Part shown: positions 280-18,049 of the stretch, piece by piece
Layout: each line of letters opens with the position of its first letter
Position numbering within the stretch: position 1 is the first letter of the stretch
Origin: Felis catus
Taxonomy: Eukaryota
Assembly (NCBI RefSeq): GCF_018350175.1
Contig: NC_058368.1
Coordinates: 88,662,001-88,726,000 of the forward strand
Direction of reading: 5' to 3'
Length of the DNA: 64,000 nucleotides
Made by a program: the position numbers and the translations under genes
The notes under the pieces: generated by a model
Told to the model about the DNA's origin: nothing
Databases searched by the model: none
What the model saw: the letters and a program-made list of their open reading frames with translations, nothing else

Positions 280-2973
280 GGTAAAAAGGCCGCACCCGTG
301 AACGAGAATGAGAACTGTGTGGAGTGGACCATCAATGCAGGCCTGCTGAAGCAGTGAGTGGAGCACCTGGTGCCCGCCTTCCTGTGGAGAGACCCCACCT
401 GCTTCTTCACATTCTTGGGCACGTACAGAGCTTTTGCTACCACCCAACAGGTCCTGGAACTATTGCTTATGAGGTGAGCGCCCTGCCCTTCACAGCCTAG
501 TGTGATTCAGCCCCTTAAAGCTTTGAGTCTAACGAAAGTCACCAAACCTCCCTGAGTCTCAGTTTGTTCCTCTGATCAGAGCAGAATAACTACAGGTACT
601 CAGTGGGGGCACTGCTTGGAAAGTGACCCTGGCCCTGTGGAAAGGTCTGCTGGACGGGCTGTGTATCTGCTGGGTGAGCTTTGTCCTCTTCCCCATGATC
701 AAGTTTCTGCCTCATCCCTCACTGTCACCAGGTGTTGAGTTGGGCTCTTTTCCCATTTGAAAAGGAGACGTGAGGGTCTATCTGTGTGTCTGAGTCCTGG
801 GTCAAACTAATCAAGGATGCCCAGGATGAGCAGGAGGCCCAGACCCACACCAATATGTGTGATGAAGCTGATTGGGGCCCTATCGTTCATCAAACATACA
901 GGAAGCCCCACTAGGTGCAGGCACTTCTGTAGGAGCTGACTGGGATCCAATGCACAGAGCAGACAGCACCCTCCTTTCCAGAGCTCCATTCTAGTCAGCA
1001 TTAAGTGACCCTGGATATGACAAGAGATAGTATCCACAGGACACCTGATATGATGCCCTTCTGGCCTCCTCCAAATATGGCTGCTTCCTTCCTGAGACTG
1101 AGGAGATGGCGGACCCCGGGAGCAGGAGAAAATGTGAGTAGGCTTGAGCTCATGCTGGAGGGCCTTCCTTCTCCAAGAAGGCAGTGCTGAGACTGTGAGT
1201 GGGAGTGGCTGCACAACCCAGCATCCCACACATCTAAGAGTCCTGTGTGAGGGAAAAGTTCTGAGGGTTTCTCCTTGGAAGCAAGGAATGGGTTCCTGTA
1301 CTGTCTGGTATAGGATGGGCTGTGGGCACAGTGAGACAGCAGATGGTGACAGAGGACAGATTCAGCCCTTTAGACAGTCCAACCCCATCCCCTCCCACTC
1401 CCAAGCCTGCCTCCATCGCCATCATGGGACCCAGAATAAAGGCTTTGAGGAGCATCACGCTCACCACGTTGTGGAACTTCAACAGTGGGTGCTTAGCAAT
1501 TGTTCAGGAGATCCAGTGAGGGCTCAAAACCAGATATCTCCTACCCTGTGAAAGACCAATGTCAGTGGGAGGACACCCACATGTGCAATAAATGAATGAG
1601 GCAGCATAGAGGCACAGATCGTCACGTTTAAGGTATGAGGAGGGTCCAAGAAAGCCCAGGTAAGAGACAGAGTACCTTTGTCCCGTATGTGTTCAGATTT
1701 TCATGGAGCGCTAGCGTATGAAGGCACTTACTCATCCTGACACCACCCCTCCACTCATTCACGGAGTTGAATTCTAGTGGGAGGTAGACAGGGGGACACA
1801 CCAAGGAGTATGTCTGGGTTCCCCAAGAAGGACAGAGATGACCACATCATTGGTTAAGGGGTTCCCGTCAAATAGAATTTTGACAGTTCCTCTTCAGTGA
1901 CCAGGACTCTCTCAGGCGGGCCTGCCAAATCACAGGTGGAAAAGGTGTAGAACCACCCTCTGTACATCCATGAGCAGGAGGTATAGAGGCCGGGTTCCAC
2001 AGGGCTGTCCTGAGACATCAGTGCGGGGAGGCACCCCATGTTGATTTTTCTGGTTACTTTTGTATCCTCAGGGCCATCTCCTCCATCCTGGGCACCTGAC
2101 TGGACCAGTACGCCGAGGATTTTTTCCAATGCACACATTTTATCAGCCTGAAGATGCTGCGGGCATATATAGGGGTCCACATGCCACACTCCGAGCTGCA
2201 GCGCCACGACCCCCTTCTCTACTCATCACAGAGAAACCATGAACCCAAAGAGCCAGGGTCTCTGGGTGAGGAAGGAGTCTGGGTGGGAGATGTGGGCATG
2301 TGGTGGGGACGGGGTATGCCACACAGAGCATGTTTCCTGAGACTGCAATTGGGCTAGGAAGAGTGTGTAGTCTCAAATCACTGTTCCATTAGCATGGCAT
2401 CTGGGAGATTTCCTCCTGGTGGGTTCTTTGACTCAGATGACAATGTCTGTGGGAGAGGTTTCCTTTATTTGGAGGTCCATGGAAAGGCAATCATGGTGAT
2501 GGCAATTTTTATTCTTAAAGCTATGGCATCAGCTCCAGAGCAAGATCCAGACGTCCCTCAGGAGCTAGCTCCTGCTATCTCTGTGATGCCCACTGCAGCT
2601 TCGCAGCTCAAGCTGGCTGAAGACACCACTCATCCTGGAGCTCAGCAATTAGAAGAAGCAGTGATGCTCCCTGCAGAGTCACCACCAGTACAGGTGGTAG
2701 TCCCAGCTCTGATTCACTGTCAGGAGCTGGAAGAGACACCTGCCCCTTTGGTGGACCCAGACCCTGAGCAGCCTCCAGCCCCAGCTGACAGGGTCACGGA
2801 AGTGCTGGAGCAACCACCTACTGCAACTGATCACCAGCCTCAGCTCCTGAGCAGTGGCGCATGTTGGCTGCAGCCCCAAATGATGGATTCCTTGACCCTG
2901 TCATTGAATTCTTTGTAATTTTTGTGTTTGTATAGATATACTTACTGTCCTTATGTATTGTTTTATAAATAAA
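280..2973 (+). pseudogene. RALGDS-like (ral guanine nucleotide dissociation stimulator-like) pseudogene, copy 1; exons 280-473, 1075-1133, 2072-2265, 2521-~2973
   Basis: Exon translations WTINAGLLKQ*VEHLVPAF...FLGTYRAFATTQQVLELLLMR, YGCFLPETEE and AISSILGT*LDQYAEDFF match RALGDS REM-domain exons (recalled) and have GT donors. Lesions: acceptor GG at 278-279, TGA 355-357, acceptor AA 1073-1074, 1-bp deletion in the 59-bp exon, TGA 2097-2099, frameshift near 2833. AATAAA at 2968-2973. Confidence 0.92.
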
Positions 2974-10200: not shown

Positions 10201-13200
10201 GAAAGTGAGCACTGGTAAACACACACACACGCACACACACACACACGCACACACAAACACACACACCAGTATGGACTGTTGGGTGGGATCAGAGGAGCAG
10301 CAGAAACAGAGGAGGTGAGAAGTCAAAGTAAATATGGTTGGATAAATTTCCAACATGTGACACCACTCCTCCAATTTCACAGGTATCATCCCACATATGT
10401 CTGAGGACATCCTGAGGAAGTACATGCTAGAATTATCTCCACTGGGCAGAAAAGACATGGACTATCCCTGAGAAGCACAATCACGAATCTGGGACCAGAA
10501 AGAGGTAAGAATGAAGAGTGACGTCTCAACCCAGATATGTCTCAAAGCTGGGACCCTGGCTGCCCCAAGACCTTCCCTGGGGGCTGTGGAGAGGGGTGCA
10601 TTGGTGTAACTGTGGACTGATGTGACATTTCTTGGAGAATGGGGGTGAGCAGTCATCAAATAGAGGACTATTTGCATAGGTGTTATCCCAGGAGCGGACT
10701 CAGGAGGTGGATCCTAGGCAGTGACATCACTTTGCTCACAATAGGCCTCAGGAGAGCTTGGAACTCCTGTAACCCGGCACCCACGTTCTAGTTAGGTCCC
10801 ATACCAGTCTCACTTGTCTACAGACACAGAGAGTTTGGGATGTTCTCTTGTTGTTTTCCCAGTTACCAGGGCTCTGGATACCAGAAACCCCAGTGCGCAG
10901 GATTACTCAGATGTTGGAGAGGTTTCCTTCACCCATGCTGGTGGTGCCTCAGAATGTTTTCCAGGAGGTGACATAAGGTAATACAGAGCAGCCTAGAGCA
11001 GGCCAGGTCAGGTCAGGTCACAGCTCTGAGCCATCCCTGGGCACCCCCATCCCCTCGTGTTCAGTTTCAGGGAAAGGGGGACAAGTGAGGTACTCCTGTC
11101 CTGGACTGGAGGAGGTTGGATGGCAGTGGATGACCTGGTGGACCCATCATGGCCATGCAGATGTCATGCTGGGAAGGAGGGAAAAGGGATCTCTGTGGTG
11201 CCTCTAACGTATAACAGGGTTAATCCAAGGCCCTCCAACCATGTTGCTTCTCCTCCTTGGGGTGGGGGGGGCGGTGTGTGCACAATGTGGTGTCATATAT
11301 CTGGAATGAAGTCACATGGGTCTGAGGACAAGCAAAAGGAAGCAGACAGGGCTTTGAGTCCCCTGACTGCCTGCTAGGCACTGTCTTTACAGAGTCACAC
11401 GTCAGAGATGGTGGAGAAGGTGAATGATGAGAGCCCCTGCTCTACTTCCCTGAAGGACAGGAGGAAGCCCCGTGTCATCAGCAGGATGCAGAGCTGGCCC
11501 AGGGTGAGTGCAGGTACCGGGAAAACTCAACACGCACGGCCCAGAGGCAATGCAAAGAATCCCAGGGCACAGAAAACACACTGATACTCCCCTGGTCTCC
11601 CTCATACACTCCTGAATCCTGATGAACCTGGAACCCCATCTCTTCCCAAAACATGCACTCATGGCCCAGGCCCTGCCATGGCCAGATGGAAAGTCACTCT
11701 CCACTTATTTATGGGAATATCAGAAAAGAGATTAGAAACCGTATCACGTCCAATTCTGTCTAGAATATTTTGGCATTGTGTTGTACATGTTTCTTCAATG
11801 ACTGTTCCCAGGTGTCCTGGTTTGCCTGACCATCCTTCCACACCTTCTCTACATCTGACACATGTTCATGAGGAGCAGGGTGATTTTTACCCAAAGGACA
11901 TGGGGCTCATGGTATTATGTCTACTGCTCTGCACTTTGGTTGCCAAGGAACACGTCCCTGGGGCCCCTCCAGATCAGGAGCAAGGGCCTTACCACCTAGA
12001 CAACGTTCTGGAAATGAGACAAGGTACCTGACCCATTCAGCCCTTCACAAATGTGGGACTTTGACATGATTCCCTTCTGTTGCCATGTCACAGTGCTGCA
12101 CTGAACATACTACATGTCCTACTACCCTGATGTAACCTCTGCCAGGAAATATCCCTGTCTTCTGGTCCCTAGAATGGACTGTGGTGTTAGAAATCACAAA
12201 GACAATGCTGTTAATGCAGGGAGGTCTGTCCACACTCATCTAACAATCTGACCTCAGATCCTAACGTGTTCAGCCATTCCCCACCTCAAATTCTCACGTG
12301 AATGCCAAGATCCTTTTTCCTACTGTGGGCACCCAGGTCTCACTCTTTCGACAAGTCACCGAAGGCTGGTGAGTTTGGTCTGCATTCTGGACCCCAACCC
12401 TCCCGATGTCCATGGGGCTGTGTCTGACTTTGTGTCCCTCCTCTGTTCTACCTCAGGGTAAAAAATGAGAATTGTGTGGAGTGGACCATCGAAGGAGTCT
12501 GGATGCTACTGGAACAGCGGGTGGAGCACCTGGTGCCCGCCTTCCTGGGTAGAGACCCCACCTACCTCTGCACATTCTTGGGAATGTAGAGAGCTTTTGC
12601 TACCACCCAACAGGTCCTGGACCTACTGTTTAAGAGGTGAGCACCCTGCCCTTCACAGCCTAGTGTGTTTTAGCCCCTTGAAGCTTTGAGTCTAGGGAAA
12701 GTCACCAAACCTCCCTGAGTCTCAGTTTGTTCCTCTGATCGGGGTAGAATAACTGCAGGTACTCAGTGGGGGCACTGCAGGGAAAGTGACCCTGGCTCTG
12801 TGGAAATGTCTGCTGACAGGGCTGTGTCTGTGCTGGGTCATCTTTGTCCTCTTGCCCGTGATCAAGTTTCTGCCTCATCCCTCACTGTCACCAGATCGTG
12901 AGTTAGGCTATTCCCATTTGAAAAGACTTGAGGCTCCATCTGGGGGTCTGAGTCCTGGATGGAACCAGAGCAAGGATATCTGCAGATAAGCAGAAGGCCC
13001 AGGCCTAGGTCCACACCAATATGTGTGATGGAGCTGATTGGGGTCCTATCATTCACCAACCATACAGGAAGCCCCACTATGTGCAGGCACTTCTGTAGTT
13101 GCTGACTGGGATCCAAAGCACAGAGCAGACAGCACCTTCCCCTCCAGAGCTTCATTCTAGTCATCAGTCAGTGACCCTGGATATGACAAGAGGTGGTATC

Positions 13201-14593
13201 CAAAGGACACCTGATATGATGCTTTTCTGGCCTCCTCCAGATATAGCTGCTTCCTTCCTGACACTGAGGAGGATGGCAGACCCCGGGAGCAGGAGAAAAT
13301 GTGAGTAGGCTGTACCCATGCTGGCGGGCCTTCCGTCTCCAAGAGGGCAGTGCTGAGACTGTGCGTGGGAGGGGCTGCAGGACCCAGCATCCCACACATC
13401 TGAGAGTCCTGTGAGAAGGCAAAGGTCTGAGGGCTTCTCCCTGGAAGCAAGGAAAGGGGTCCTGTCCTGTAGGTTAGAGGATAGGTTGTGGGCACAGTGA
13501 AACAGAAAAGGGCACCAGAAAACAGAGTCAGCCCCTTAGAGAGTCCAACCCCTTCCCTTCCCACTCACAGGCTTGCCTCCACCCCGTATGGGAGCCCAGA
13601 ATAAAGGTTTTGGGGAGCATCATGCTCACCACCTTGTGGAACATCAACAGTGTGTGCTTACTTAGCAAGGGTTCAGGAGACACAGTGAGGGCTCAAGGAC
13701 CACATATCACCCACACTATGGGAGACCAGTGTCAGTGGAAGGACACTCACATGTGCACTGAGTGAATGAGTCACCATATAGGCACAGGTCGTCATGTTTA
13801 AGGTATGAGGAGGGTCCAAAAAGCCCAAGTAAGAGACAGAGTCCCTTTGTCCCGTCGTTGTTCGGATTTTCATAGAGCGCTAGTATATTCAGTGAAGGCA
13901 CTGACTCATCCTGGCACCACCCCTCCACTCATGCACGGAATTGAATTCTAGCGGGAGGTAGGCAGGGGGACACACCAAAGAGTATGTCTGGCTTCCCCAA
14001 GAAGGACAGAGACGACCACATCATTGGTTAAGGGGTTCGCGTCAAATAGAATTTTGACAGTCCCTCTTCAGTGATCAGGACTCTCTCAGGCAGGACTTCT
14101 TCCAAATCACAGGTGGACAAGGTGTAGGAACAGCCTCTGGACATCCAGGATCAGGAGGCAAGGATGCCAGGTCCCACAGAGGTGTCCTGAGACATCAGAG
14201 TATTGGGAACACCCCATGTTGATTGTTCTGGCCACTTTTGTATCCCCAGGGCCTTCTCCATACTGGGCACCTGGCTGGACCAGTACCCCCAGGATTTTTT
14301 CCAGCCCCCACATTTCATCAGGCTGAAGATGCTGCAGGCATATGTAGGGGTCCACATTCCAGGCTCCAAACTGCAGTGCTGTGCCTGCCTTCTCTACTCA
14401 TCGTGGAGAAACCGTGAGCCCCAAGAGCCAGAGTCTTGGGGTGAGGAGGACTCTGAATGGGAGATGTGGGCATGTGGAGGGGATGGGGTATGCCACACAG
14501 AGCACGTTTCCTGCGGCTGCGGGTGGGCTAGAAGCAGTGCGTAGTATCAGATCACTGTTTGATTAGCATGCCATCTGGGGAGAATTCCTCCTG

Positions 14594-15604
14594 ATGGGTT
14601 GTTTGACTCAGATGACAATGTCTGCGGGAGAGGTTTCCTTTATTAGGAAGGGCCATGGAATGGCAATCACAGTGATGACAGTTTCAATTCTTGAAACTAA
14701 GGCACAAATTCCAGGGCAAGATCCAGACATCCCTCAGGAGCTAGCACCTGATATGTCTGTGGTGCCCGCTGCAGCTTCGCAGCCCAAGTTGGCTGAAGAC
14801 ACCACTCACCCTGGAGCTCAGCAATTAGAAGAATCAGTGACCCTCCATGCAGCATCCCTGCCAGTGCAGGTGTTAGTCGCAGCACTAATTCACTGTCAGG
14901 AGCTGGAAGAGCCACCTGCCCCTTTGGTGGACCCAGAACCTGAGCAGCCTCCATCTCCAGCTGTCGGGGTCATGGAAGGGCTGGAGCAACCACCTGCTGC
15001 AGCTTCGCAGCCCAAGCTGGCTGAAGACACCACTCATCCTGGAGCTCAGCAATTAGAAGAAGCAGTGACCCTCCCTACAGCTTCACCACAAGTGCGGGTG
15101 GTAGTCCCAGTTCTGATTCACTGTCAGGAGCTGGAAGAGCCACATGTCCCTTTGGAGGACCCAGAAGTTGAGCAGCCTTCAGCCCCAGCTGTCGGGGTCG
15201 CAGAAGGGCTGGATCAACCACCTGCTGCAGCTTTGCAGTGCAAACTGGCTAAGGACACCACTCATCCTAGAGCTCAGCACATAGAAGAGTTGAGCCTCCC
15301 TGCAGCGAACCCACCAGTGCAGGTTGTAGTCCCAGCTCTGATTCACTGTCAGGGGCTGGAAGAGCCACCTGCCCCGTTGGTGGACCCACAACCTGAGCAG
15401 CCTCCAGCCCCAGCTGGCGGGGGCATGGAAGGGCTGGAGCAACCACCTGCTGTAGCTGAGCAACCAGCCTTAGCTCCTGAGCAGCGGCTCATGTTGGCTG
15501 CAGCCCCAAAGGATGAATTCCCTTCCGCTGTCATTGCAGTCTTTCTAATTTTTGTGGTTTGTATAGAGATATTTAACGGCCTTATGTATTTTCTTTGTAA
15601 ATAA
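14594..15604 (+). CDS. Open 336-codon ORF spanning the terminal Pro/Glu-rich exon of RALGDS-like copy 2, with hydrophobic C-terminus (translation unproven)
   Basis: ORF track 14594..15604. It contains three 76/76/75-aa repeats and ends SAVIAVFLIFVVCIEIFNGLMYFLCK*. The stop overlaps AATAAA at 15600-15605. The start codon lies in what is intron in the ancestral structure. Confidence 0.35.
   Translation: MGCLTQMTMSAGEVSFIRKGHGMAITVMTVSILETKAQIPGQDPDIPQELAPDMSVVPAAASQPKLAEDTTHPGAQQLEESVTLHAASLPVQVLVAALIHCQELEEPPAPLVDPEPEQPPSPAVGVMEGLEQPPAAASQPKLAEDTTHPGAQQLEEAVTLPTASPQVRVVVPVLIHCQELEEPHVPLEDPEVEQPSAPAVGVAEGLDQPPAAALQCKLAKDTTHPRAQHIEELSLPAANPPVQVVVPALIHCQGLEEPPAPLVDPQPEQPPAPAGGGMEGLEQPPAVAEQPALAPEQRLMLAAAPKDEFPSAVIAVFLIFVVCIEIFNGLMYFLCK
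14768..15448 (+). repeat. In-frame tandem repeat, 3 units of 228/228/225 bp
   Basis: Unit starts gctgcagct at 14768, 14996 and 15224. Copy 1 has a single 228-bp unit (2592-2819). Confidence 0.95.
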
Positions 15605-15627
15605 AACATAAATTAACTTCAAATAAA
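15600..15627 (+). terminator. Candidate polyadenylation signals (AATAAA at 15600-15605 and 15622-15627)
   Basis: Hexamers sit at and just after the stop codon. The first is conserved in copy 1 (2968-2973). Confidence 0.5.
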
Positions 15628-18049
15628 ATTTTACTCTGATCCTTTGAAATTATAAATCAAGTGTCATTACATACCTTCACAGGAATTTACAACCGTGTCC
15701 ACTATGTATTCCTAGAACATTTCCATCACACAGACACGTGTACTACCAATCACCATGGCTCATTCCCTCACCTCAGTCTCTGCAACCACCGATATCGGTT
15801 TCTGCTGCTTTAGCTCCTCCAAAATTTTCAGGTGTGTGCAAAAATACAACATGGCCTGTTGTGTCTGGCTACATAACATGAGAGTGATTAATAATTCATT
15901 AAAAATTCAATGAAACTAATATTTTTATGACAGAGGAATACCCACCAAAGAACAAAGATTATGTCAAGCTCCTTACTTGGAATATCTTCATTATCTGGCA
16001 TGGGGACACTTTGAGGTTTGACACAAGACCAGAAGCCAGAAGAGAAATGTCTGGACCAGAGAGATACCTTGAAAATGTTTCATTTTCCTGGACCGGCCAT
16101 GTTGATATTGGTCTAATGTGCATATTATAAAAATACCTAAGTGAAATATTCAATATTCCATTTATGCTAATCTATTAGGCAATAAAGTACAAGGATCTTA
16201 AAGGTTTTCTGCAGGGGACGTTTATGTAGTAAACTAAAGATTTAAATAATGAGGACAGGCACCAAGGTGGCTCAATCGTTTGAGTTTCCGAGTTGAATTT
16301 GGCTCAGGTCATGATCTCATGGCTCTTGAGATCAAGTCCCAAGTCAGGCTCCGCAATGACAGCTTGAAGCCCTGGTCAGGATTCTCCTTCTCGCTCTTTC
16401 CAAATAAATAAATATGAAAAAAAATAAATAAATACAAATAAACGCGGAGAAAATTTTATATTCTTCAAAGAAATAATCGCCCATAAGACATGGTGTCATC
16501 TTCCCAGTCGTTTTGCTTTGAGTGCAGCAGGTGTCTGTGTTTGGGTCTATGAGTAGTGTGACAGGTTGGGCGTGGAAGGATCCAGGATTATGATCTTGTA
16601 GTACGTGATGTCCCCACAGTGGACAGGCACAGTCCTGTCCCCTTCTGCATTCTCAGTGGCCACACATCATCATCTACTCTGCGTCTCCAGAAGCTGAATG
16701 ACTGGGCCAATTCCAATACTTTGACTCTCATCATTGTACAGAACGGTACATGTGTACTGTAAATCTCTCTTTCTTTATTAGGCTTGTACACCTAGCACAA
16801 CTTTTGGAACATAATTCATATGCATTTTGCGGGTGCTGCCTCCAGTTTCCAATATCTACAGTCTCTTTATTATGTTGGGGCCTTATGTGAAAAGCAGGGA
16901 CCCCCCGGGACTGACTGGATACCTGAAGAATTAGGAGGACAAGCCAGCACTGAGGCCATCAGGGTACCGAGGAGTGACCCATGGGGCAGGAAAGAAACCA
17001 CATTCCCTCACTGTGATCTCCTGCACAGCATCCCTGCCCCATGTCCCGGAACACACTCGTCCAGGCCCCATCCCATGACAAACCCCAGCCACCTGTGTGC
17101 CTCCTGTTCCATAGCTCTGCTTCTCAGTAGAGCAGCCAGTCCCTGCTTTCAGGCCAGTGGAGGATGCAGCCTGGGCCACTGCTGTCTTCTTGCTGGCCCT
17201 CCACCCAGGCTGGGTCCCTTACTCTCAGGAAAGTACCTGTAAGTGCAGGTCAGGTCAATGAGTTAAAGACCATGACCTGAATGTGTTCATCCTGAGGATT
17301 CAGTGGCAACAGCAAGAACCACTTGAGCCTCCACAAGCAAGAGAGTCTTTTACAAAGCACACCAGGAGCTCAAGGAGCCTGCAGGATGGAGACTCAGTCA
17401 ACGGTTTGATACCGAGTAAAGCCACTCCACGCTTCAGGCTCCTCCAGCAGTGAAGCCCTGCACCTGCCAGCCCCATCTTTGGGGAACAGTGACTTTGTCA
17501 TGAGCAGCCACACAGCACCCTCTGGTGACCACAAGACACACAGGAATACTGCAGGGCTCCCTGATCTCTCAGCGAAGAAAGTGCCATTCCAACTTAGACA
17601 TCCTCAGAGCATTCCAGGCAGATCAGAAACAACTCTGTAAAACTCAATGATTTTGAGGTGCCTTTCAAGAACTCTATGAAAAATATAGGTCTCTTCCCAA
17701 TGGCAGTATTCTGAGATGAATTCACTGAACGTTTGAGTCAGGCACTGGGTTCCAGGACAGAAAATAGAGACAAGGTGGCTACCTCCCAAGATGCACAGGG
17801 TGTGTTGTGGGAATGTGTTGGGAAGTATATGTCTATGTCACAGCTCTCTGTGTCTGGTTAAACAAAACATATATCCAAACAAACCTTATTTATGGACCTG
17901 GGTGGCACAGTCAGTGAAGCATCTGACTTTGGCTCAGGTTGTGATCTCATGAATTGTATTCTGAGTCCTGCATTGGGCTCTGTGCTGACAACTCAGAGTC
18001 TGGAGCCTGCTTCAGAATCTGTGCCTCTCTTTCTTTCAGCTCTTCCCCA

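What the first reader, a model, noticed from the sequence alone, without database searches (positions are those of the whole stretch)
10824..15627. Tandemly amplified RALGDS-derived gene family with non-canonical architecture: Cys-motif N-terminus, REM domain, PE-rich stalk, hydrophobic tail, no catalytic domain
Seen: six phase-compatible exons ending in stop plus AATAAA right after the Pro/Glu-rich segment. I found no CDC25 (RasGEF) or Ras-association exons in the ~5 kb downstream of either copy. Known: in RALGDS this exon continues into the CDC25 domain (LVAEQFTLMDA...), and RALGDS-like families with MFSCC-type starts are expanded in several mammals. Inference: the ancestor of this array encoded a catalytically dead, possibly membrane-tethered REM-only protein, perhaps a decoy or scaffold. 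Intact paralogs may exist elsewhere in the array. This is the best candidate for an undescribed system here.
Basis: partly seen in the sequence, partly recalled or inferred. Interest (0 to 1): 0.7.

Follow-up and report, generated by a model that had tools for sequence, protein, structure and literature searches.

The report
Broken copy of tail-anchored RALGDS offshoot
This is a broken copy of a many-copy carnivore gene family that descends from the signalling gene RALGDS, lacks its enzyme part, and ends in a predicted membrane anchor that likely arose from the tail of an old jumping gene; intact copies exist elsewhere in the same genome, but whether they are made into protein and what they do is untested.

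Summary
The architecture is real, but the window's gene is broken: stop in exon 1, 20-nt deletion and second stop in the REM exon. All four copies in the local array are broken. Of 38 copies modelled, 7 elsewhere are intact six-exon ORFs (372-379 aa) and 4 more are intact without exon 2. No CDC25 or RA sequence lies at any copy. RefSeq already lists these proteins as 'RalGDS-like'; REM-only, Cys-headed forms occur across placental mammals. The hydrophobic tail is in models from six carnivoran families and 0 of 14 named non-carnivoran relatives checked; a colugo tail is unresolved. An old antisense LINE-1 3' end starts at the stop codon, so its T-rich tail likely gave the membrane helix. The intact lineage kept its frame (neutral P 0.001-0.005), yet overall pN/pS is about 1. 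Expression was not shown. A dog relative lacks REM but keeps head, stalk and tail, which weakens the decoy idea. Ten paper searches found no description. The scan noted similar camelid families before.

The parts
10722..10729 (+). CRE-like 8-mer 118 nt before the start codon (lead only; the label is recalled)
   Evidence: present in 5 of 10 upstream regions (window copy and four C2-type copies); background 0.025 per 330 nt
10824..10977 (+). Exon 1, Cys-rich basic head (ATG 10840); premature TGA at 10969
   Evidence: a homologous first exon also starts the CDC25-bearing loci L045, L048, L053
11393..11503 (+). Exon 2 (111 nt), likely the diverged counterpart of the RALGDS exon before REM
   Evidence: this RALGDS frame hit only L034, L045, L048, L053, not the window, so the match is by position
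12337..12368 (+). Cryptic 32-nt exon-like stretch; not part of the family's structure
   Evidence: GT donor only in the two window copies
12457..12636 (+). REM exon, first half; 20-nt deletion (frameshift) and TAG at 12587
13241..13300 (+). 60-nt REM linker exon; its last two bases begin the Met codon of the RefSeq short model
14250..14440 (+). REM exon, second half (191 nt, open)
   Evidence: (PF00618 E=0.037)
14715..15604 (+). Terminal exon: Pro/Glu/Ala stalk, hydrophobic tail and stop (open frame; RefSeq model uses the acceptor at 14775)
14768..15457 (+). Three 228-nt (76-aa) stalk units, 85% matches
15518..15601 (+). Predicted C-terminal membrane helix, T-rich DNA
   Evidence: Kyte-Doolittle 2.63 over 19 aa; 49% T; helix in the model of paralog P0012
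15600..15627 (+). Two AATAAA signals (15600 and 15622); use not shown
15584..15870 (-). 3' end of an old LINE-1, antisense to the gene (approximate limits)
280..2973 (+). Copy A: REM exons and terminal exon only, broken; an inverted broken copy lies just upstream of the window

Best explanation
The window holds a broken copy of a carnivore-wide RALGDS offshoot whose intact members lack the catalytic domain and likely encode a tail-anchored membrane protein that would act as a passive adaptor or spacer, not as an enzyme. Shown: a duplicate of RALGDS with a Cys-rich basic first exon (shared with CDC25-bearing paralogs) ends inside the Pro/Glu exon, exactly where an antisense LINE-1 3' end begins. 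Inferred: that one insertion cut off CDC25 and RA, and its poly(A) tail, read as T-rich DNA, became the hydrophobic tail, with stop and polyA signal at the junction, before cat-like and dog-like carnivores split. Predicted: the last 20-25 residues insert in a membrane with the rest in the cytosol; the head is palmitoylated and binds acidic membrane (from recalled knowledge of such motifs); REM folds but is dispensable; the disordered stalk sets the reach and varies in unit number. Selection appears to keep the frame open more than the residues. Copies are born and die in tandem arrays, and the window's full-length gene is one of the dead ones.
For: Exon and protein homology to RALGDS, with no CDC25 or RA. 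7 intact six-exon and 4 intact five-exon ORFs among 38 copies modelled. PF00618 only, E=1.5e-14; model with REM helices 63-187, low-confidence stalk and helix 315-334; best folds Rgl2/Rlf 5cm8 and 4jgw, E=0.004-0.009. Terminal hydrophobic tail in 25 of 30 named carnivoran models and 0 of 14 named non-carnivoran ones (48 of 167 proteins picked by hand), plus mink, meerkat and ferret. Ferret XP_044943736.1 is colinear, 40% identical over 390 aa. LINE-1: 4 dispersed hits at E<0.001 in 578 kb, 0 in the reversed control, each beside ORF2 remains on the other strand. Neutral survival of the L004 frame: P=0.001, or 0.005 after calibration on broken copies.
Against: Overall pN/pS on intact lineages is 0.86-1.09, like the broken copies (0.90-1.42); stalk 1.3-1.75, tail at or above 1; REM's low ratio owes much to a high synonymous rate. 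RNA: 56, 1 and 2 reads in three raw runs, no joints, no piled ends; the few sense-side reads in X24 carry the letters of broken copy L035/L037. 27 of 38 copies modelled are broken or incomplete within the stretch fetched. Two dingo, one sea lion and one elephant seal model lack the tail. All other-species evidence is automated gene models, found because they are open. T-rich DNA gives hydrophobic residues without selection. The poly(A) origin is by position; the tail DNA itself did not align to LINE-1. Membrane insertion, palmitoylation and partners were not tested.
Confidence: 0.45

Rival explanations
1. The family is a passenger of unstable segmental duplications with little or no protein function; open frames reflect recent copying, and the tail is a by-product of T-rich DNA.
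For: Overall pN/pS about 1; intact cat copies differ by only 0.5-4% in exons, so they are nearly one lineage; most copies broken or partial; no spliced reads in three runs.
Against: The stem lineage stayed open over 7.5% intron divergence (P 0.001-0.005; about six lineages were looked at). Long open frames ending in the same tail occur in seals, bears, mustelids and dogs.
Confidence: 0.25
2. One reading: the membrane-bound REM domain would bind in trans to a CDC25 domain (RALGDS or the RGL4-like paralogs) or to Ras-GTP and damp or redirect Ral signalling.
For: REM is the only part with pN/pS below 1 (0.52-0.67 against 1.08 pooled in broken copies) and is kept in REM-only relatives across placentals. 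In SOS the REM domain holds an allosteric Ras site (PMC3762125, passages read).
Against: That review calls the second Ras site unique to SOS. The dog model has no REM and the grey seal model has no Pfam REM hit. The contrast with broken copies has p=0.07.
Confidence: 0.15
3. The window copy is not dead but shortened: it would make a 340-360 aa protein (half REM, three stalk units, tail) from the Met at the exon 5/6 joint, as RefSeq models it, parallel to the REM-less dog protein.
For: RefSeq XP_044912832/4/5 ('protein app1-like') equals this frame with acceptor 14775. The terminal exon is open in tiger, lion, jaguar and clouded leopard models, 3.7-4.4% different. All 3 lesions lie in the 5' 489 nt and none in the 3' 1080 nt (p=0.03); neutral survival P 0.002-0.03.
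Against: The part was chosen after the fact. pN/pS is 0.92 on this branch and 0.75-1.75 between units. No model from other small cats was found. No RNA was laid on this copy.
Confidence: 0.15

Closest known systems
RefSeq 'ral guanine nucleotide dissociation stimulator-like' REM-only models of felids (e.g. XP_044908094.1, 378 aa; XP_044907365.1, 335 aa) and other carnivorans (ferret XP_044943736.1, brown bear XP_026348653.2, grey seal XP_035953011.1)
   Same: Same family: Cys-rich head, REM, Pro/Glu stalk, hydrophobic tail, PF00618 only.
   Different: Automated names only; no paper found. The window copy is broken at the 5' end and has three stalk units.
RALGDS proper (L041) and the CDC25-bearing cat paralogs L045/46, L047/48, L053
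   Same: REM exons of the same size and 50-69% identity to RALGDS; the paralogs share the Cys-rich first exon and about 150 nt upstream.
   Different: No CDC25 or RA exons; new terminal tail; many copies.
REM-only 'RalGDS-like' arrays of horse, pig, cattle, camel, bats, rabbit, kangaroo rat, elephant
   Same: Head plus REM plus short stalk, no catalytic domain; 63 members in one horse cluster.
   Different: 0 of 14 named ones checked have a hydrophobic tail. A colugo model has one that did not match the carnivore tail profile.
Dog 'fibrous sheath CABYR-binding protein-like' XP_038540506.1, and human CDRT15/CDRT15L2
   Same: The dog model has the same head, stalk units and tail. A rabbit family member is named CDRT15-like by RefSeq. 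CDRT15 is described as 188 aa, three exons, predicted at the plasma membrane (PMC10403009, passages read).
   Different: The dog model has no REM.

Membership tests
RalGDS/RGL exchange factors | REM domain (PF00618) | tested here: met
   E=1.5e-14 in intact paralog P0089; broken in the window copy
RalGDS/RGL exchange factors | CDC25 catalytic domain (PF00617) | tested here: not met
RalGDS/RGL exchange factors | Ras-association domain | tested here: not met
   RALGDS RA frames hit no family locus; no Pfam hit
RalGDS/RGL exchange factors | Nucleotide exchange on Ral | not testable with these tools
   needs an assay; not expected without CDC25
Mammalian REM-only 'RalGDS-like' multicopy family (RefSeq) | Cys-rich basic first exon | tested here: met
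Mammalian REM-only 'RalGDS-like' multicopy family (RefSeq) | RALGDS REM exons without catalytic exons, in arrays | tested here: met
Tail-anchored membrane proteins | One hydrophobic helix at the very C-terminus | tested here: met
   19-residue hydropathy 1.96-2.98, 1-19 residues from the end; helix 315-334 of 335 in the model
Tail-anchored membrane proteins | No N-terminal signal peptide | tested here: inconclusive
   head is basic and Cys-rich and the hydropathy peak is the tail; no signal-peptide predictor was run
Tail-anchored membrane proteins | Post-translational insertion, body in the cytosol | not testable with these tools
   needs cell or microsome assays
Unprocessed pseudogene (window copy, full length) | Premature stops or frameshift with introns kept | tested here: met
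   stops at 10969 and 12587, 20-nt deletion
Unprocessed pseudogene (window copy, full length) | No protein product at all | tested here: inconclusive
   pN/pS 0.92, but the 3' 1080 nt are open and modelled by RefSeq
CDRT15/CDRT15L2 | Sequence homology to the human proteins | not tested

The most novel reading that the evidence does not exclude
One LINE-1 insertion turned a Ral activator into a two-ended membrane tether in the carnivore ancestor: a palmitoylated basic head grips one membrane, a new tail helix sits in another, and a disordered stalk whose unit number changed separately in dogs and cats sets the gap, possibly in germ cells. The window copy would then be a cat-family variant that shed its front half.
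Probability: 0.15. Interest if true: 0.8.

Novelty: new variant of a known kind. Interest (0 to 1): 0.5.

Why it matters
Surveys that count RasGEF genes report this module as nearly fixed in mammals (PMC3141262, abstract and passages read). A catalytically empty, fast-turning RALGDS offshoot sits beside that count, under misleading automatic names. If expressed, it is a datable case of a membrane anchor born from a retrotransposon tail in the same event that removed an enzyme domain, and the tail-less relatives in other mammals give a natural control. The window copy itself is a damaged member; the interest lies in the family.

Tried and rejected
Splicing on to downstream CDC25 exons: rejected at DNA level, since none lies near any copy. 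A seven-exon model with the 32-nt exon: rejected, as it would shift the frame in all copies with a 194- or 200-nt REM exon. Sequencing-run search: no RNA holder listed. The source of X24's loose-ended reads was looked for in one tail-only remnant (L101) and not found. Unnamed ENA and Logan proteins were first taken as possible spliced products, but they read through intron 6 and are no such evidence. BLAST for the repeat behind the stop found only a family copy; a profile search found it; the genome search was filled by family copies. PDB sequence search 0 hits; Foldseek 0 hits at E<=0.001; Atlas no usable hit for the dog protein. The Pfam 'E+ motif' hit is below its cut-off and was ignored. 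No complex was predicted, as REM with CDC25 would pass by likeness to solved structures. Ten paper searches (listings and abstract starts only, apart from three papers read in passages) found no description of the family; supplements were not searched and may list these loci. Inoue et al. 2001 on CDRT15 was not held.
Full report
What is in the window. Self-comparison shows two copies of a unit, 86-90% identical. The second copy carries exons at 10824-10977, 11393-11503, 12457-12636, 13241-13300, 14250-14440 and 14715-15604, with a stop at 15602 and AATAAA at 15600 and 15622. They do not give a whole protein: TGA at 10969, a 20-nt deletion in the first REM exon and TAG at 12587. Copy A lacks the first two exons and is broken in several places; an inverted broken copy lies just upstream. 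The species is domestic cat: a RefSeq Felis catus model equals the window's 3' frame.

Origin. RALGDS proper (L041) has REM exons of 194, 60 and 194 nt, as in intact family copies, at 50-69% identity. Its CDC25 and RA frames hit no family locus and nothing in the window, while control loci were hit. None of 53 PF00617 matches lies in a family array. Three CDC25-bearing RALGDS-like loci start with a homologous Cys-rich exon and share upstream DNA, so the head is older than the loss of the enzyme domain (inference).

Family in this genome. One REM exon gave 40 matches, a lower bound; 38 were modelled and two (C5:136786, C5:140582) were not. Seven are intact six-exon frames of 372-379 aa (L003, L004, L006, L007, L022, L028, L021/L030) and four are intact without exon 2 (338 aa); three of the seven and all four use a GC donor. 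Only L006, L022 and L012 lie on a chromosome-scale contig; the rest are on small contigs and may partly repeat it. All four local copies (L001, both window copies, L031) are broken.

Other species. RefSeq holds the same proteins as 'RalGDS-like' with PF00618 only. Of 48 proteins picked by hand from 167, 25 of 30 named carnivoran models end in a hydrophobic tail, one lion model has it internally, four lack it, and 0 of 14 named non-carnivoran models have one. Of 130 further representatives, 6 have a hydrophobic tail: mink, meerkat, colugo and three unnamed. The colugo tail did not match the carnivore profile or align. A ferret protein is colinear at 40% over 390 aa. A dog model keeps head, repeated stalk and tail with no REM; a grey seal model has an out-of-frame REM stretch. 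All are automated models.

Where the tail came from. A profile of the DNA around the stop found 4 dispersed copies at E<0.001 in 578 kb of other loci and none in a reversed control; the best match starts about 18 bases before the stop. Each copy lies beside LINE-1 ORF2 remains on the opposite strand, so this is an antisense LINE-1 3' end. Its poly(A) tail would fall on the tail-coding DNA, which is 47-59% T. That step is inferred from position; the decayed tail does not align.

Shape. AlphaFold2 on P0012 with 27 sequences gives confident REM helices (63-187), a low-confidence head and stalk, and a C-terminal helix. The best fold matches are Rgl2/Rlf, none at E<=0.001. In carnivoran members the first 46 residues hold 5-6 Cys and 9-11 Lys/Arg; palmitoylation is inferred from recalled knowledge of such heads.

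Selection. From the inferred split with the local array to L004, introns changed 7.5% with 3.4 frame-shifting indels per kb, yet the 372-codon frame is open: neutral P=0.001, or 0.005 after scaling by broken copies. About six long lineages were seen, so this stays suggestive to good. Against: overall pN/pS is 0.86-1.09 on intact copies and 0.90-1.42 on broken ones; only REM is low (0.52-0.67; p=0.03, and p=0.07 against pooled broken copies), partly through a high synonymous rate. The method is rough: majority-vote ancestor, uncorrected counts, assumed transition bias of 4, and signs of mosaic exchange between copies. In the window copy the 3' 1080 nt are open (P 0.002-0.03, chosen after the fact) and are open in four big-cat species' models, so a shortened product is not excluded.

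Expression. Three raw RNA runs of unknown tissue gave 56, 1 and 2 reads on the 3' end of L004, with no joints and no piled ends; most X24 reads fit only partly, and its sense-side reads match a broken copy. RefSeq lists several isoforms per locus, which usually reflects RNA support, but that support was not seen here. Expression is open.

Mechanism and verdict. The most likely reading (0.45) is a tail-anchored, enzyme-less adaptor or spacer family of carnivores, of which the window gene is a dead full-length copy. Rivals: neutral passenger (0.25), REM decoy (0.15), shortened live product of this copy (0.15). It fails membership of the RalGDS exchange factors and belongs to the annotated REM-only family; the tail and its likely LINE-1 origin were not found in ten paper searches. 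Papers seen: PMC3141262 (abstract and passages), PMC10403009 and PMC3762125 (passages); all others as listings only. Earlier notes of this scan describe similar camelid families, including a T-rich tail and a two-anchor idea; they are not independent evidence, and whether those tails are homologous was not tested.

Noticed in passing
   Followed up: partly
L045/L046 and L047/L048 (C10:50.5 and 50.8 Mb), L053 (C21:32.46 Mb): RALGDS-like loci that keep CDC25 exons and start with the same Cys-rich exon; the first two are an inverted pair. Intactness not checked.
   Followed up: partly
L024, L025, L027, L028 (C4, C5) and L022 (C2): A 3.8-kb tandem unit holding the REM exons and terminal exon; RefSeq joins units into multi-REM proteins of 509-1408 aa. 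Rabbit relatives also have tandem REM repeats (P0168-P0170).
   Followed up: no
L101:3164-3533 and seven similar places: Tail-only remnants of the family; in L101 unrelated T-rich DNA replaces everything upstream.
   Followed up: partly
P0121, P0122 (canids); P0025 (grey seal); P0188 (meerkat): Stretches that read in another frame of the family sequence and then return to frame before the tail or the second REM half, as if by compensating indels; may be model artefacts.
   Followed up: no
L001 (frames of 1116 aa) and L077 (1216 aa): Long open LINE-1 ORF2 frames, one just downstream of the inverted copy.
   Followed up: no
window 10672-10729: An octamer-like and a CRE-like motif upstream of exon 1 (labels recalled); the CRE-like one is shared with the C2-type copies only.
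   Followed up: partly
tail helix of felid, seal, bear and dog models: A polar or helix-breaking residue recurs near the middle of the helix (Glu, His, Pro, Asn), which could matter for pairing in the membrane.
   Followed up: no
L032-L034 (C41:16.87 Mb): An older broken copy split by a large insertion; it lacks the LINE-1 piece behind the tail.
   Followed up: partly
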